A stretch of 64,000 nt of DNA from a virus: the IMG/VR virus record IMGVR_UViG_3300036399_001571, positions 108,520-172,519 of that record. One strand, given 5' to 3'. Each line of letters opens with the position of its first letter. Positions within the stretch are counted from its first letter, which is position 1. Positions 1,973 to 31,718 of this stretch are shown in pieces. Under the pieces are notes generated by a model, which was not told the DNA's origin, searched no databases, and saw only the letters and a program-made list of their open reading frames with translations. The translations under genes and the position numbers were made by a program.

Positions 1973-2143
1973 CTACCGCATGCTCCCTGAATACATTCTG
2001 TCCTGAAGGTCTGCGAAGTGATAATCGCACAATGAAACGGTAATAACGCCACTCTCATACTGGCGCACAGTGCCACCGCACATATCTGCGCTATCGGCAT
2101 TGGTGTCGTATTCTCGGCATTGTTGGTGTGTTTGGTTATTCAT
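1973..2143 (-). CDS. small hypothetical protein (56 aa, MNNQTHQQC...)
   Basis: ATG 9 nt after the -10 box of promoter 2167, near-leaderless; below ORF-track cutoff. Confidence 0.55.
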   Translation of the reverse strand: MNNQTHQQCREYDTNADSADMCGGTVRQYESGVITVSLCDYHFADLQDRMYSGSMR

Positions 2144-2301
2144 AGTGATATGACCTTATCAAACTAGATATCAGATTTCCAAATTGAACAATAAGCCCCG
2201 GCATTAGGAGAAAGCAATACCTCTAATGAGGCGGGGCTCCTGGCCAAATAAGTGACGCAGGTTTCCCCACGCCACCTAATCGGTTGAACTTGCTTCGCTG
2301 A

Positions 2302-2604
2302 TTATTCCTCGTAGCGAAGGTCGTAATCCTCAATGTCGTCACACCATGCGCCAAGGTGGTGAGATTCAATGATTGCCCATGCAGGCGCACTCGTCTTACC
2401 CTTCCACGACACACCTTCAGGCAATTCAATGAGTTCATCCCCACTGAAGTCTGCGTTGTAACTGTCAATTGCTTGAATGCACACTGGCACCATTGACAAT
2501 GGCACTGGCGGGTAGTGATTACTCCGCAGGTGGATTGCTAGGGCTGTATCCAGTGATAGGCCCATGTCGTTGTCGGCTAGTTCGCTTGCTAACTGATTAC
2601 CCAT
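2302..2604 (-). CDS. hypothetical phage protein (100 aa)
   Basis: ORF with AAGGGGG RBS. Confidence 0.75.
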   Translation of the reverse strand: MGNQLASELADNDMGLSLDTALAIHLRSNHYPPVPLSMVPVCIQAIDSYNADFSGDELIELPEGVSWKGKTSAPAWAIIESHHLGAWCDDIEDYDLRYEE

Positions 2605-2893
2605 TATTTGCCCCCTTCAGGACTAGTAGTAGTGAAGTTGGTGGGAGCCTGTCGGGGGACATTTCCATCCCCCGATTAGCGTTATAGGACACTCTTCAGT
2701 CCCACCAACAGTAAACACTTTACGGTATGCGATATCAAATTTACAATTCACGACTGGCCACCCCTGCGCCTTCAGGAGCGTGGTTTGAGCCCCGCATACC
2801 AACTGTCTTGGGTGTTGGAGTGGCGGGGCTATAAAGCCAAAAAAGTCGAGCAACCTACTGGCTGCCCGACTTCTCGGAGGGTTTTACTGGCGC

Positions 2894-3133
2894 TTACTGG
2901 CGCTGGAGTTTGTACAACTCGTAAATCCAGCCAGTGCCACCGCCGTAGTGATACTTCTCACCAACAGTGTTCTTCATTTCGTACAGCGCGTCATCCAACA
3001 TGTAGATGGCTCCCTCTCCTTCTTCGCTCTCGAGATTCCTGAGCATTTCAGTCATCTCATCGAGCAAGGTCCTAAGTTCTTGGGCGATTTCCCCAACACT
3101 CTTTACCTTTTCTTCTTCCAGTATTTCGTCTAT
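2894..3133 (-). CDS. acidic hypothetical protein, apparent ATA start, possible paralog of 3490-3738
   Basis: 79-codon open frame after AAAGGGG RBS; YHYGGGTGW resembles YWYGSADGW of the neighbour. Confidence 0.5.
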   Translation of the reverse strand: MDEILEEEKVKSVGEIAQELRTLLDEMTEMLRNLESEEGEGAIYMLDDALYEMKNTVGEKYHYGGGTGWIYELYKLQRQ

Positions 3134-3153
3134 GTCTTTCCCCTTTGTTCGAA

Positions 3154-3169
3154 TGTTCCACGTGGAACA
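3154..3169. promoter_or_regulatory. parS-like palindrome TGTTCCACGTGGAACA
   Basis: Perfect 16 bp palindrome (20 bp with flanks) matching the chromosomal parS consensus. Confidence 0.65.
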
Positions 3170-3241
3170 TTTCCTTACAAGACCAACTCTAGTACACCTG
3201 ATATCAGATTTACAACTTCACTTTTTAGCCCCGTCTTGGGG

Positions 3242-3255
3242 CGAACATATGTTTG
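3242..3255. promoter_or_regulatory. LexA-box-like CGAACATATGTTTG
   Basis: One mismatch to CGAAC-N4-GTTCG, ~25 bp upstream of promoter 3200. Confidence 0.5.
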
Positions 3256-3316
3256 CAGCCGTAGGCGGGGCTATAAAACTAAAATGTCGGGCAACCGATT
3301 TGGCTACCCGACACTT

Positions 3317-3493
3317 TCAGTCGATTTGGATTTTGTCAAACACTTCGGCTCGAGCATTGAGCATCGCCCAATGAAAAGCGTCCATGAAAATCTGCTGCTT
3401 CTCTGCCGACCTGAACTCTCGCTCGGCGTGGGCTCGAGCCTCGGCGGTCTTAACCGCCAAGAGCCCGACCCACCACTCGACCTTCTCGTTCAC
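3317..3493 (-). CDS. small hypothetical protein (58 aa, MNEKVEWW...)
   Basis: GTG overlaps the TGA of 3490-3738 (translational coupling). Confidence 0.55.
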   Translation of the reverse strand: MNEKVEWWVGLLAVKTAEARAHAEREFRSAEKQQIFMDAFHWAMLNARAEVFDKIQID

Positions 3494-3738
3494 CAGTTAG
3501 CCGAGTTAAACGGCTCTTTGTTTGGTTCTTTGAGCGCTCGCTCCCAGCCGTCGGCACTGCCGTACCAGTAACTTCCCTTGTAATCACTGACGATGTAGCC
3601 GAGTTTCCCTAGCACTGCTTCCTCGATTGTCTCGTCCTCGGGTTGGCTGTCGAGTATCTCGAGTAGTTCGAGTACCGCTTCCCTGATTTCATCAAGAGCC
3701 TTCGCTCCTGCTTTCCGCACCTCTACTTGACCTTCCAT
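3490..3738 (-). CDS. hypothetical protein (82 aa)
   Basis: AAGGGG RBS; promoter TTGCAA-17-TAGAGT at 3798-3826. Confidence 0.75.
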   Translation of the reverse strand: MEGQVEVRKAGAKALDEIREAVLELLEILDSQPEDETIEEAVLGKLGYIVSDYKGSYWYGSADGWERALKEPNKEPFNSANW

Positions 3739-3759
3739 TACTTTCCCCTTTTCTCGGAA

Positions 3760-3775
3760 TGTTCCACGTGGAACA
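3760..3775. promoter_or_regulatory. parS-like palindrome TGTTCCACGTGGAACA
   Basis: Second perfect copy (22 bp palindrome 3757-3778) in a 5' leader. Confidence 0.65.
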
Positions 3776-4030
3776 TTCGGTTTTTCTTACAAGACCAACT
3801 CTAGTACACCCGAAAGAGAATTGCAACTTTTATTTATAGCCCCGCAGAAGTTTTTTTCATTTAACATACAGATGACATACAGGTAACATACAAATTTTCG
3901 TCAGCAGAAGGGCAGGCGGGGCTGTTTTGAGAAAAAAATAAGCCACACCAAAACTCAACGCAGGTTGAAAGGGGTAAAACGCGGAGTAATGGTGTGGCTA
4001 TTTATTAGTAGGTATTGCTACCCACTAAAC

Positions 4031-4285
4031 CTAGTTTGACATTTCGTGAGTTTGCTCGTCAAACCTTCCAACTAAGTGAGGCTGTAATACCTCGTTGTAT
4101 CCGTCTGCAATACTGCAAGCCTGCGAGTGAGAAACACAGGGCATTGAGTATTGTAGGAAGTCGCTACTGTCTCCAGTAGGTGACTGAATATGAAGCATTA
4201 CTGCCCAAGTAGTAGAAACCCCATAAACCTGCATTGGGTCGTGGACTACTTGTGCGCTAACGATAGAACCTTTACCTGATTTCAT
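4031..4285 (-). CDS. hypothetical protein (84 aa, MKSGKGSI...)
   Basis: TAATG overlap with upstream gene; GAAAGGT RBS. Confidence 0.6.
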   Translation of the reverse strand: MKSGKGSIVSAQVVHDPMQVYGVSTTWAVMLHIQSPTGDSSDFLQYSMPCVSHSQACSIADGYNEVLQPHLVGRFDEQTHEMSN

Positions 4286-4533
4286 TACTTGCCTACCTTT
4301 CCAGTAGTGAGTGTTTGCTCTAGGACTAGCCACGAGTGACCAGAACTTGTGTTTGCGTGGATTTGGAAACTGTAAGTGTTGTAGTCGCCTACACTCTCCC
4401 AGTATTCCGAAGCCTCGTCAGTTGCCAACCAAGCCTCACACTCTTTACGAGTGTCTGCCTCAAAGGCTGGCGTGTCGCTATCTGGGAGACAGCCTGCGCT
4501 TGCCCACCAAACCTGATAAACGGTATGTTTCAT
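4285..4533 (-). CDS. hypothetical protein (82 aa)
   Basis: AAGGGG RBS; promoter at 4597. Confidence 0.75.
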   Translation of the reverse strand: MKHTVYQVWWASAGCLPDSDTPAFEADTRKECEAWLATDEASEYWESVGDYNTYSFQIHANTSSGHSWLVLEQTLTTGKVGK

Positions 4534-4739
4534 AATTTCCCCTTTCCGAGAAACTTACGGGGATACTTTCCCCGTTGAGATAACAGTACAGGACTAGATA
4601 TCAGATTTACAAAATTACTTATTGCGCTTTATTACTGCGTAGATATAGGTAAAGATAACGCCACTAAGAAACCCAATAATTAGCCCTTGTGTGTACATAA
4701 CTGCTTGCACGATTTTTTCTTTCCGTTGTAGGTGATACT

Positions 4740-4768
4740 AAATTACAGGCTTGTAGTGATTATGTCAA
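4740..4768 (-). promoter_or_regulatory. sigma-A-type promoter TTGACA-17-TAATTT
   Basis: Canonical -35, 17 bp spacer, extended TG -10. Confidence 0.6.
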
Positions 4769-4865
4769 GGATTTCGATATAGCCCCGCATATCGGGCTGA
4801 GCCCGTCTAATAGCCGGGGCTCCGGGAAAAATTTCAGCCGGGTGAACAGGCTGAAACTGGTGGGC

Positions 4866-5120
4866 TCACCAAGTCGAAAGGTCGACGCCCCCGTGTGGGA
4901 AGTTCTCGGCGAAGCCTGTCGTCCAAATCGAGTTGCCTGTTGGGCACCTGTAAGTGTCGTGCTCCCCGAGCTTGTCCAGTATGTCCACGATGACTTCGTC
5001 ACCAGCGACTGTCACCAGTATCACATGGCCCTCGTAGACCTTGTATGAGCTGTCGCCAGCGTTGATGTATGTACCAATGCGCAGCTTCTCTGCGTCTACG
5101 AGCTGTGGCGTGTAGTTCAT
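4866..5120 (-). CDS. hypothetical protein (84 aa, MNYTPQLV...)
   Basis: ATGA overlap with upstream 41-codon ORF 5117-5242. Confidence 0.6.
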   Translation of the reverse strand: MNYTPQLVDAEKLRIGTYINAGDSSYKVYEGHVILVTVAGDEVIVDILDKLGEHDTYRCPTGNSIWTTGFAENFPHGGVDLSTW

Positions 5121-5335
5121 TCCCAATCCAACCCGTCTGTGAAGGCCTCGTTCTCTGCGTACCACGCAAGGTCGTCCTCTTGTACGAGGTGCCCGTCCAG
5201 TGTGTACTCCCCGTCATCCCACGGGTTGAATTCTGCTTTCATTTTGTGCCCCTTTCAGTTGGCCTTGCTTCCGTGCTCCAAACATTACAACACGCGATAT
5301 CAGATTTACAAAACGGGCGAACAGGCCAGCCCGGG

Positions 5336-5349
5336 CGAACATGTGTTCG
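5336..5349. promoter_or_regulatory. LexA-box-like CGAACATGTGTTCG
   Basis: Exact CGAAC-N4-GTTCG upstream of promoter 5296. Confidence 0.6.
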
Positions 5350-5450
5350 TGCGCGACCCGGAGTCCCGGCTATCAGGCGCGAGCGCCGGGGCTCATGGAA
5401 AATTTTGGGGGTGTAACAAGGTTTTTATTCCCTGTCACACCCCCTCGGGT

Positions 5451-5768
5451 TTAGAACTCGTAGGAGTAGTAGTACCTGCGACCGCTCAGGTGAAGCACAG
5501 CCCAACTATCCAACGAATCACCAATCTGAACCCACCTTCCGTTTTTGCGGAGTGTAAAGCAAGCGGTTGGGTTGTTTGGGTTTGGTGTAATTTCCCAGTC
5601 GTTGCTGTAAGGCTTCGCACCTTCGGCTGGCTTGACATCGTCTTGCTGAACGATAATCTTCTTGCCGTTTTCACTGACGAAAACAATCGTTACTGAGTGA
5701 GTGTCCACTCCGTTGCTTACGTGTGCGCCGTTTCCGACTACTGGCTTTATTCTTTCCTTGGTTTCCAT
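5451..5768 (-). CDS. hypothetical phage protein (105 aa)
   Basis: GAAAGGGG RBS; promoter at 5818. Confidence 0.8.
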   Translation of the reverse strand: METKERIKPVVGNGAHVSNGVDTHSVTIVFVSENGKKIIVQQDDVKPAEGAKPYSNDWEITPNPNNPTACFTLRKNGRWVQIGDSLDSWAVLHLSGRRYYYSYEF

Positions 5769-5935
5769 TGTGTCCCCTTTCGTGGAACTCGTTTACAAAA
5801 TAAACTTTACAGTACGCGATATCAGATTTACAAAAATTGGAATTTTTTACATAGCCCCGCTGCCGGATTTTTTATTACTATGCCGGGGCTAGCTAAGAAA
5901 AAAGAGCAGGCGCTTTCGCACCCACTCTCTCTCCG

Positions 5936-6127
5936 TTATCGGGTTGCGGACTGCACTCGGTCAGCGAGGTTCTTGATGGCGATTTGCAGACTAATCGTTA
6001 CCATGTAGAGGTAATGATTTTCAATTTTGTCCTTTTTGTAAATCTCTAGGATTTCTTCCCGTGTCTTGATGAGTGACAGGATTTCGTCTGCGCATTCTGT
6101 AAGACTGAGTGTGTTGTCTGTTTCCAT
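5936..6127 (-). CDS. hypothetical protein (63 aa)
   Basis: GAAAGGGG RBS; promoter at 6181. Confidence 0.7.
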   Translation of the reverse strand: METDNTLSLTECADEILSLIKTREEILEIYKKDKIENHYLYMVTISLQIAIKNLADRVQSATR

Positions 6128-9141: not shown

Positions 9142-9459
9142 ATGACAGCAGTAGCAGTAAGAGTGAGCGCACCACCGAGTGGCGATTTGCCTTGTACTGG
9201 CAGGCAGGATTTGTTTTATGGCAAGTACGCCGAAAGACCTGAAGCACGATTGCGCCGTGAAGAAAAAGCCAAAAAAGTTTGCGCTACTTGTTCACAGGCG
9301 ACTATTTGCCGTGATTACGCCCGTAGTAATGGCGAAGTGTTTGGTATTTGGGGCGGAGAAACAGAAATGGAAAGATACAGCGCAGGATTTATGTTGTCAG
9401 TACCACCTCACTTGTCACGGAGAGTTGTTACTATGAAAGAAAGATATGGGAACTTATAA
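9142..9459 (+). CDS. whiB: WhiB-family Fe-S transcription factor
   Basis: Four Cys (C..., CATC, IC) and GIWGG turn; GGAG RBS. Confidence 0.9.
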   Translation: MTAVAVRVSAPPSGDLPCTGRQDLFYGKYAERPEARLRREEKAKKVCATCSQATICRDYARSNGEVFGIWGGETEMERYSAGFMLSVPPHLSRRVVTMKERYGNL

Positions 9460-31329: not shown

Positions 31330-31718
31330 TGTGCTTCCCGCAGGGCTTTCTTTATTGCCGCATCCTTAAGGCGATAGTTGCCCTTATATGCAAACCCATT
31401 GGCGTTTCGCCTTCCGATTCCAGGAAGGAAAATTCTTGCTTCTCGAGATAGGAGAATCCCTTTGTCACTTCTCATCATTGCGCGTTCAGCTTCTGTTTTC
31501 CCTCCCCAAATACCAATTGGTTCATGACGAAGTGAATACTCAAGACAGTGCTCCATTGATGGGCATGAGTTGCAAAGCTCAATTGCTTCTTTTGTATCTG
31601 CCCTAAATTTAAGCCACTGTTCCCTTGGCAAACCTTTTTCGATTACTGGGAACCACTTGTCAACATCGTGTCCTTTGCAGTTTCCCTCTGCTGGCGGCGC
31701 ATCGTAGTTTGGCAACAA
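31326..31718 (-). CDS. whiB: WhiB-family Fe-S transcription factor
   Basis: C...WFP...CNSCP...CLEYS...GIWGG. Confidence 0.9.
   Translation of the reverse strand: MLPNYDAPPAEGNCKGHDVDKWFPVIEKGLPREQWLKFRADTKEAIELCNSCPSMEHCLEYSLRHEPIGIWGGKTEAERAMMRSDKGILLSREARIFLPGIGRRNANGFAYKGNYRLKDAAIKKALREAQ

What the first reader, a model, noticed from the sequence alone, without database searches (positions are those of the whole stretch)
3152..3778. Two perfect parS-like palindromes in duplicated gene leaders
Seen: TGTTCCACGTGGAACA at 3154 and 3760, each between promoter and RBS, inside a duplicated leader (CTTACAAGACCAACTCTAGTACACC shared). Known: this matches the 16 bp chromosomal parS consensus loaded by ParB. 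No parA/parB is in the window. Inference: the phage may recruit host ParB (and SMC) to position or segregate its genome, titrate ParB off the host chromosome, or use ParB spreading to repress these genes.
Basis: partly seen in the sequence, partly recalled or inferred. Interest (0 to 1): 0.72.

Follow-up and report, generated by a model that had tools for sequence, protein, structure and literature searches.

The report
Host-type parS sites in phage promoters

Summary
TGTTCCACGTGGAACA occurs exactly at 3154-3169 and 3760-3775, as the core of 20- and 22-bp perfect palindromes. These are the only two copies in the 172,519-bp virus genome. Each lies between a promoter and a ribosome-binding site of a minus-strand early cassette.

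This 16-mer is a genuine chromosomal parS variant. In bacterial genomes it occurs in clusters. In 7 of 8 Actinomycetota genomes inspected it lies upstream of parA-parB, directly upstream in the three small genomes. The phage has three WhiB genes, which points to an actinobacterial host. It has no ParA and no ParB HTH domain, only a ParB-like protein consisting of the N-terminal domain.

Ten copies in seven related phage contigs keep the 16-bp core invariant, although its flanks, linkers, -10 boxes and downstream genes vary. The array-wide promoter core has also diverged in concert between two complete genomes.

Best reading (about 0.5): host ParB binds these sites as an operator and loading site in the middle of the early-gene array. 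ParB binding itself is untested. Remaining rivals are a phage XRE repressor, an RNA 5' hairpin, and a role in genome positioning or ParB titration. All relatives belong to one lineage, about 85% identical in DNA. Another note in this scan flagged the same stretch.

The parts
3154..3169 (.). parS-like 16-bp palindrome of unit B (core of the 20-bp palindrome 3152-3171)
   Evidence: Exact match. Identical to natural parS sites upstream of parAB in Actinomycetota. Invariant in 10 copies from 7 phage contigs.
3760..3775 (.). parS-like 16-bp palindrome of unit A (core of the 22-bp palindrome 3757-3778)
   Evidence: On the + strand, together with the T-run that follows, it also scores as terminator-like.
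3174..3215 (-). Promoter B: -35 at 3210-3215, 18-nt spacer carrying the array's conserved core, -10 at 3186-3191, and the start of the shared 25-nt leader (3174-3198)
   Evidence: It is one of about 30 copies of the array promoter. Alignment, coordinates. The transcription start is inferred, not mapped.
3786..3826 (-). Promoter A: -35 at 3821-3826, 17-nt spacer without the array core, -10 at 3798-3803, and the shared 25-nt leader (3786-3810)
3136..3146 (-). Ribosome-binding site of gene B, 7 nt after the palindrome core
   Evidence: Invariant block in the 8-copy alignment. Coordinates.
3741..3751 (-). Ribosome-binding site of gene A, 8 nt after the palindrome core
2894..3133 (-). Gene B: a small acidic protein of 79 codons with a C-terminal aromatic and glycine-rich motif. 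The window copy has ATA where orthologues have ATG.
   Evidence: No Pfam or PHROG family.
3490..3738 (-). Gene A: an 82-aa acidic protein that occupies the variable first slot of operon A
   Evidence: Six metagenomic homologues at 71-88% identity. Relatives carry other gene types in this slot.
3317..3493 (-). Conserved 58-aa second gene of operon A, whose start overlaps the stop of the first gene
   Evidence: 98-100% identical in four relatives. Overlapping stop and start seen.
3281..3317 (-). Intrinsic terminator that ends operon A
   Evidence: 16-pair stem followed by a T-run.
2845..2870 (-). Terminator-like hairpin after gene B
   Evidence: Read from the sequence. Coordinates.
3864..3892 (-). 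Three direct TGTATGT repeats at an 11-bp period, upstream of promoter A
   Evidence: Two of the three repeats lie in the stretch aligned, and they are conserved in all A-type units. Function unknown.
3941..3999 (-). Strong terminator-like hairpin that insulates unit A from the cassette upstream
   Evidence: Read from the sequence.

Best explanation
The palindromes are functional copies of the host chromosome's parS. The phage most likely infects an actinobacterium, and the host ParB dimer recognises the 16-bp core as soon as the DNA enters the cell. The core lies about 16 nt (unit B) or 22 nt (unit A) downstream of the -10 box and 7-8 nt upstream of the ribosome-binding site. Bound ParB would therefore act as an operator or roadblock for these two insulated early cassettes. 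This is the same arrangement that small-genome actinobacteria have at their own parAB leader. The sites also lie near the midpoint of the roughly 27-kb early promoter array, so they could load CTP-bound ParB clamps that spread over the array. As phage copy number rises, ParB would be diluted over many sites, which would relieve repression. Shown here: the sequence identity to natural parS, the position, the conservation, and the absence of a phage parAB. Inferred: ParB binding, repression, spreading and dilution.
For: (1) The exact 16-mer is a natural parS. Of 120 bacterial loci holding it, 34 have two or more copies within 8 kb and 24 have a ParB box II ORF in the same 8 kb. It occurs in 20 of 401 sampled Actinomycetota genomes, against 1 of 401 for the reversed control. 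In 7 of 8 of those inspected it lies upstream of parA-parB, often as a pair 36-58 bp apart. In one genome a TIGR00180 ParB gene lies 1.8 kb away. (2) The host phylum fits: three WhiB genes score above cut-off, and the nearest capsid proteins come from Gordonia and Brevibacterium phages. (3) There is no phage ParA, no ParB HTH domain, no full-length ParB and no integrase. (4) Ten copies in seven phage contigs have an invariant 16-bp core, while the bases next to it, the linker length (4 or 10 nt), the -10 box and the downstream gene all vary. (5) G000 and the complete relative G406 are about 85% identical over 66% of the genome, and their roughly 30-copy promoter core has diverged in concert, yet the palindrome has not changed. 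This fits a partner that does not co-evolve with the phage. (6) The central four bases are also self-complementary, which an RNA loop does not need. (7) ParB repression of promoters next to parS is documented in Pseudomonas aeruginosa (10.1101/151340, title only).
Against: No binding data exist. The host is inferred only to phylum level, and its own parS variant is unknown. All relatives come from one lineage, so the conservation evidence is phylogenetically shallow: at 85% identity a neutral 16-mer stays unchanged about 7% of the time per pair. The phage encodes an XRE-type HTH protein whose HTH region is identical in G000 and G406, and it could bind the palindrome. Any palindrome also folds as an RNA hairpin, here -12.3 kcal/mol. 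The scan covers very many windows, so some chance matches to a famous motif are expected. The phage DNA might be modified, which could block ParB. ParB-mediated repression is usually only modest.
Confidence: 0.5

Rival explanations
1. Host ParB does bind, but the selected function is not transcription control. The site would serve to position or segregate the phage genome, to load SMC, or to draw ParB off the host origin. Its place in a promoter leader would then be incidental, or copied together with a host parAB leader.
For: The sequence evidence is the same as for the best explanation. There is no integrase, so a non-integrated carrier state could use host ParAB. A parS site alone can stabilise a plasmid in Bacillus subtilis cells that have Spo0J and Soj (Lin and Grossman 1998, from my own knowledge).
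Against: In all ten copies the site sits in the same place between the -10 box and the ribosome-binding site of a small cassette. Segregation does not require this. The genome looks virulent: a large early array, its own replication genes and tRNAs, and direct terminal repeats in G406. One complete relative has a single exact site.
Confidence: 0.15
2. The palindrome is the operator of a phage-encoded dimeric repressor, and its likeness to parS is a coincidence. The candidate is the 72-aa XRE/HTH_3 protein encoded in the early array, about 6.8 kb before the window start. An unrecognised regulator is also possible.
For: A perfect palindrome at the start of a transcript is the classic layout for a phage operator. 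An XRE protein exists. It is 96% identical between G000 and G406, with an identical HTH region, which matches an unchanged operator.
Against: A random 8-nt half-site matches one of the four natural TGTTNCAC forms with a probability of about 6 in 100,000. The match extends to GAA/TTC flanks like those of a parS in a small actinobacterial genome. The XRE gene has its own conserved inverted repeat, different in sequence, about 30 nt upstream of its start. That would be the usual place for its operator.
Confidence: 0.2
3. The element works as RNA or as a terminator. It could be a stem-loop near the 5' end of the two mRNAs that stabilises them or is recognised by an RNA-binding protein or an RNase. 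On the + strand it could act as a terminator against antisense transcription.
For: The predicted hairpin is stable at -12.3 kcal/mol, with a z-score of -3.7. It lies close to the inferred 5' end. On the + strand, palindrome A plus the following T-run scores as terminator-like. One relative changes the pair just outside the core from A-T to T-A.
Against: Ten copies show no compensatory change inside the stem. The loop bases are invariant and self-complementary. One copy has a T/T mismatch at the flanking pair. The T-run is absent in B-type units. The whole leaders are not unusually structured, with z-scores about -1.5. None of this explains the exact identity to parS.
Confidence: 0.1

Closest known systems
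Chromosomal parS bound by ParB/Spo0J (16-bp consensus TGTTNCACGTGNAACA; Lin and Grossman 1998 and Livny et al. 2007, from my own knowledge; Jalal et al. 2020, PMC7383237)
   Same: The same 16-bp palindrome. This exact variant is used upstream of parAB in natural Actinomycetota genomes. It lies in a leader or promoter region, as at the parA gene of small-genome actinobacteria.
   Different: It lies on a virus genome without parA, without a full-length parB and without an origin-proximal cluster. There are one or two sites per genome, each upstream of small genes of unknown function.
ParB as a repressor of promoters next to parS (Pseudomonas aeruginosa parS3/parS4, 10.1101/151340), and plasmid RK2 KorB with its palindromic operators (from my own knowledge)
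   Same: A ParB-family protein bound to a palindrome at or near a promoter lowers transcription. This is how the phage cassettes would work.
   Different: In those systems the regulator is encoded by the same replicon. Here it would be a host protein acting on a virus.
Phage and plasmid-prophage partition cassettes: P1 parABS, N15 sopAB with centromere sites dispersed in regulatory regions, and mycobacteriophage parABS of extrachromosomal prophages (from my own knowledge; context in PMC7157519)
   Same: A centromere-type site on a phage genome. In N15 the sites also lie in regulatory regions.
   Different: Those elements encode their own ParA and ParB with private centromere sequences. This phage encodes neither and uses the universal chromosomal sequence.
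Phage ParB-like proteins without a DNA-binding domain, which activate 5-methylpyrimidine dioxygenases (PMC13229309), and the survey of the ParB-CTPase fold (PMC12704722)
   Same: The phage's own ParB-like protein (genome 12917-13711, phrog_723) matches only the N-terminal domain of Noc/Spo0J.
   Different: Nothing links that protein to the palindromes. It has no detectable HTH domain for parS.

Membership tests
Chromosomal-type parS (ParB/Spo0J binding site) | 16-bp inverted repeat matching TGTTNCACGTGNAACA | tested here: met
   Exact palindromic form with C/G at the N positions, at 3154-3169 and 3760-3775.
Chromosomal-type parS (ParB/Spo0J binding site) | This very sequence is used as parS in real chromosomes, clustered and next to parAB | tested here: met
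   34 of 120 bacterial loci hold two or more copies, and 24 of 120 have a ParB box II ORF within 8 kb. In 7 of 8 Actinomycetota loci it lies upstream of parA-parB. Found in 20 of 401 genomes against 1 of 401 for the control.
Chromosomal-type parS (ParB/Spo0J binding site) | Specifically bound by ParB, which loads as a CTP-dependent clamp | not testable with these tools
   This needs EMSA, ChIP or a reporter assay. The host has not been isolated.
Chromosomal-type parS (ParB/Spo0J binding site) | A host that encodes a canonical ParB | tested here: inconclusive
   Host phylum inferred as Actinomycetota from three WhiB genes and capsid similarity. All five bacterial genomes probed had a TIGR00180 ParB. 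The actual host is unknown.
Self-encoded partition cassette (parABS / sopABC type) | The element encodes its own ParA ATPase | tested here: not met
   No AAA_31 or CbiA match in G000, and no CbiA match in G406.
Self-encoded partition cassette (parABS / sopABC type) | The element encodes a centromere-binding ParB with a DNA-binding domain | tested here: not met
   No HTH_ParB match. TIGR00180 matches only positions 27-99, below cut-off, in both complete genomes. PDB matches are restricted to the N-terminal domain.
Operator of a phage-encoded repressor | Palindrome overlapping a promoter or the start of its transcript | tested here: met
   The core starts 16 or 22 nt after the -10 hexamer. The transcription start is inferred.
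Operator of a phage-encoded repressor | A cognate phage DNA-binding protein | tested here: inconclusive
   One XRE HTH_3 protein is present and conserved. It has a different conserved inverted repeat upstream of its own gene.
Structured RNA element (5' stem-loop) | Base pairs maintained through compensatory changes | tested here: not met
   No substitutions inside the 16-nt core in 10 copies. The only change on both sides is at the flanking pair, in one copy, and another copy breaks that pair. The depth of divergence is limited.

The most novel reading that the evidence does not exclude
A virulent phage uses the host's universal ParB-parS-CTP clamp system as a built-in regulator. One or two orphan parS sites near the midpoint of a roughly 27-kb early-gene array load host ParB. 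ParB then blocks the two parS cassettes and spreads over the array, giving either a silencing mechanism or a copy-number timer as replicating genomes dilute ParB. The phage's own N-terminal-domain-only ParB-like protein might engage host ParB clamps. Orphan host-type parS sites may be widespread on viral contigs. None of those loci had a ParB box II ORF. The sites lie outside long open frames three times more often than a control 16-mer.
Probability: 0.25. Interest if true: 0.85.

Novelty: new variant of a known kind. Interest (0 to 1): 0.68.

Why it matters
ParB-parS is known as a self-encoded segregation and regulation module of chromosomes, plasmids and plasmid-prophages. A phage that keeps only the cis site, in the exact chromosomal form and inside early promoters, would be a natural case of a virus wiring a conserved host DNA-clamp loader into its own gene programme. 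Four searches of the held paper library found no report of this. It is directly testable with ParB from any cultivable actinobacterium. It would also make orphan parS a marker for host prediction, since such phages should infect ParB-bearing hosts. Finally, it offers an entry point into how ParB, SMC and related host systems treat incoming viral DNA.

Tried and rejected
- Protein-based locus searches with gene A found nothing in viral contigs or metagenome contigs.
- Scanning IMG/VR for the G000 promoter core gave only single, chance-level hits. Close relatives use a diverged core.
- None of the first 120 IMG/VR contigs holding the 16-mer is a relative of this phage.
- Pfam, PHROGs and the ESM Atlas gave nothing for the regulated small proteins.
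- A megablast of 2000-6000 and a tblastn of gene A against cultured phages found nothing.
- An apparent terminal overlap of the genome was a spurious 20-mer match.
- A predicted pairing between the leader and the start of gene A is not conserved in cassettes with other first genes.
- I compared the site, from memory only, with other actinobacterial operators (Rex, LexA, CRP/GlxR, NrdR, HrcA, HspR). None matches.

Full report
**Observation.** The window is the last 64 kb of a 172,519-bp IMG/VR virus record that CheckV rates complete. Dinucleotide shuffles expect 0.29 matches at up to three mismatches. The perfect palindromes are longer than reported, 20 bp at both sites and 22 bp at the second. 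The whole genome has only these two sites at up to two mismatches. Among all inverted repeats with arms of at least 7 nt and short gaps, this is the only one present twice.

**Anatomy.**
- The genes here run on the minus strand.
- The genome holds about 30 copies of one promoter, with a -35 box, an 18-nt spacer with a nearly invariant first part, and a TAnnnT -10 box. They lie mostly on the minus strand between genome positions 98.8 and 126.0 kb.
- Unit B (3215 down to 2845) uses this promoter. Unit A (3826 down to 3281) has a 17-nt spacer without the conserved core.
- Both units share an identical 25-nt stretch covering the -10 box and the first transcribed bases. After it come a linker of 4 or 10 nt, the palindrome, 7-8 nt, an identical ribosome-binding site, and then a small acidic protein gene.
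- The two coding sequences are barely alignable (BLASTP E = 0.015), yet the regulatory blocks are identical. The duplication is therefore old and the regulatory part is under constraint.
- Operon A has a second, 58-aa gene and a clear intrinsic terminator. Unit B ends in a terminator-like hairpin.

- 34 of the 120 loci have two or more copies within 8 kb, and 24 carry an ORF with the ParB box II motif in the same 8 kb.
- In a sample of 401 Actinomycetota genomes, 20 have the exact site, against 1 for the reversed control.
- I fetched eight of these genomes. In seven the site lies upstream of a parA-parB operon, and in five it is a pair 36-58 bp apart.
- In three small genomes (1.7-2.0 Mb, local GC 51-55%) the second site lies roughly 40-130 nt before the parA start. 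This is the same leader position as in the phage. One site there also shares the GAA/TTC flanks of the phage palindrome.
- In one genome a TIGR00180 ParB gene lies 1.8 kb from the pair.

The sequence is therefore a genuine, naturally used chromosomal parS variant, not merely close to a consensus.

**Host and phage-encoded partners.**
- Three WhiB-family genes score above the Pfam cut-off, and the closest capsid proteins are from Gordonia and Brevibacterium phages at 48-54% identity. Both point to an actinobacterial host.
- The genome has no ParA, no ParB HTH domain and no integrase.
- Its single ParB-like protein (genome 12917-13711, phrog_723) matches only the N-terminal domain of Noc/Spo0J.
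- Phage ParB-like proteins without a DNA-binding domain have recently been described as activators of thymine dioxygenases (PMC13229309).
- The complete relative G406 has the same ParB-like protein and no CbiA-type ParA; AAA_31, the ParB HTH domain and integrase were searched in G000 only.

**Relatives.**
- A scan of metagenome contigs with 21 nt of the leader, not the palindrome itself, found four contigs. All four have the exact 16-mer downstream. Two of them carry a second, B-type copy whose leader differs, so that copy was not selected by the query.
- A protein alignment of B-type genes found two IMG/VR relatives, one of them a complete 160-kb genome with terminal repeats (G406). Both have the exact site in the same cassette position.
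- G406 has one exact site.
- Across the ten copies the 16-bp core never varies. The bases directly outside it do vary: A or T on the 5' side, T or A on the 3' side. The linker is 4 or 10 nt, the -10 box has two forms, and the first gene of operon A belongs to three different types.
- In the 8-copy alignment the core is the longest invariant block, and its edges coincide with the 16 bp of parS.
- G000 and G406 align over 66% of their length at about 85% identity.
- Their roughly 30-copy promoter core has changed in concert at three positions, while the palindrome has not. This is what one expects if the promoter element co-evolves with a phage factor and the palindrome answers to a conserved host protein.
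- In both genomes the site lies within 1 kb of the midpoint of the promoter array: 111.7 and 112.3 kb against 112.4 kb in G000, and 92.2 kb against 93.05 kb in G406. The genomes are syntenic, so this counts as one observation, with a chance probability of roughly 0.07.

**Mechanism.** I consider it likely that host ParB binds this DNA, because chromosomal ParB proteins recognise this motif across bacteria and the exact variant is used in the inferred host phylum. Bound at about +10 to +30 (an inferred position), ParB would hinder RNA polymerase at these two cassettes. ParB repression of promoters next to parS is documented (10.1101/151340). Loading of sliding clamps from a mid-array site, and relief of repression by dilution as genomes replicate, are inferences only. 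I put the operator and loading-site reading at about 0.5. A further 0.15 goes to ParB binding whose main purpose is positioning, segregation, SMC loading or titration.

**Rivals.**
- The phage encodes a 72-aa XRE-type protein in the early array. Its HTH region is identical in G406, so it could be the binder (0.2). Two points count against this. A chance match of a half-site to a natural parS form is about 6 in 100,000. The XRE gene also has its own, different, conserved inverted repeat about 30 nt upstream of its start.
- An RNA hairpin (-12.3 kcal/mol) or a + strand terminator cannot be excluded (0.1). However, there are no compensatory changes, the loop is invariant and self-complementary, and the leaders as a whole are not unusually structured.

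**Limits.** All relatives come from one lineage of modest divergence.

**Wider hint.** None of the 120 loci has a ParB box II ORF. 31% of the sites lie outside open frames of 100 aa or more, against 11% for the control (Fisher p = 0.002). Orphan host-type parS on viral contigs may therefore be more common than this one lineage. Four searches of the held literature found no description of the phenomenon.

Noticed in passing
window 3131-3133 (minus strand): Gene B has ATA at the codon where its orthologues in L194, L195 and L327 have ATG, behind an identical ribosome-binding site. It is either a rare ATA start or a weakened gene start. The next in-frame start listed is TTG at 3067.
   Followed up: partly
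window 3864-3892: Three direct TGTATGT repeats at an 11-bp period, followed by an A-rich run. They lie between an inverted pair of the AGCCCCG-type heptamer, upstream of promoter A, and two of the three lie in the aligned stretch and are conserved in all A-type units of relatives. They could bind another factor.
   Followed up: partly
window 3490-3738 and L192-L195, L328: The first gene of operon A is a swappable slot with an 82-aa, a 66-aa or a 74-aa type in different phages. The promoter, palindrome, ribosome-binding site and the overlapping 58-aa second gene stay nearly identical.
   Followed up: partly
G000 genome 98.8-126.0 kb (window 1-17.5 kb) and G406 78.9-107.2 kb: The roughly 30-copy early promoter core differs between the two genomes at three positions in nearly all copies. 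The whole array has evolved in concert, presumably together with a phage factor that reads the spacer.
   Followed up: partly
G000 genome 101793-101810 (L326:894-911), outside the window: A conserved 18-bp inverted repeat with 7-nt arms and a 4-nt gap lies about 30 nt upstream of the 72-aa XRE gene and is also present in G406. It is a candidate XRE operator or a small hairpin.
   Followed up: no
window 9211-9375 (+), window 31476-31688 (-), and genome 90062-90253: Three WhiB-family genes in one phage genome, all above the Pfam cut-off.
   Followed up: no
IMG/VR loci L004-L123, for example L022, L059, L090, L095, L102, L123: Many unrelated viral contigs carry the exact parS variant without a ParB gene in the fetched flanks. 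The sites are enriched outside long open frames. Several contigs have two parS-type sites 24-300 bp apart.
   Followed up: partly
G406:C1:41337-41352: The complete relative has a second site with two mismatches, far from the early array. It may be chance or a degenerate site.
   Followed up: no
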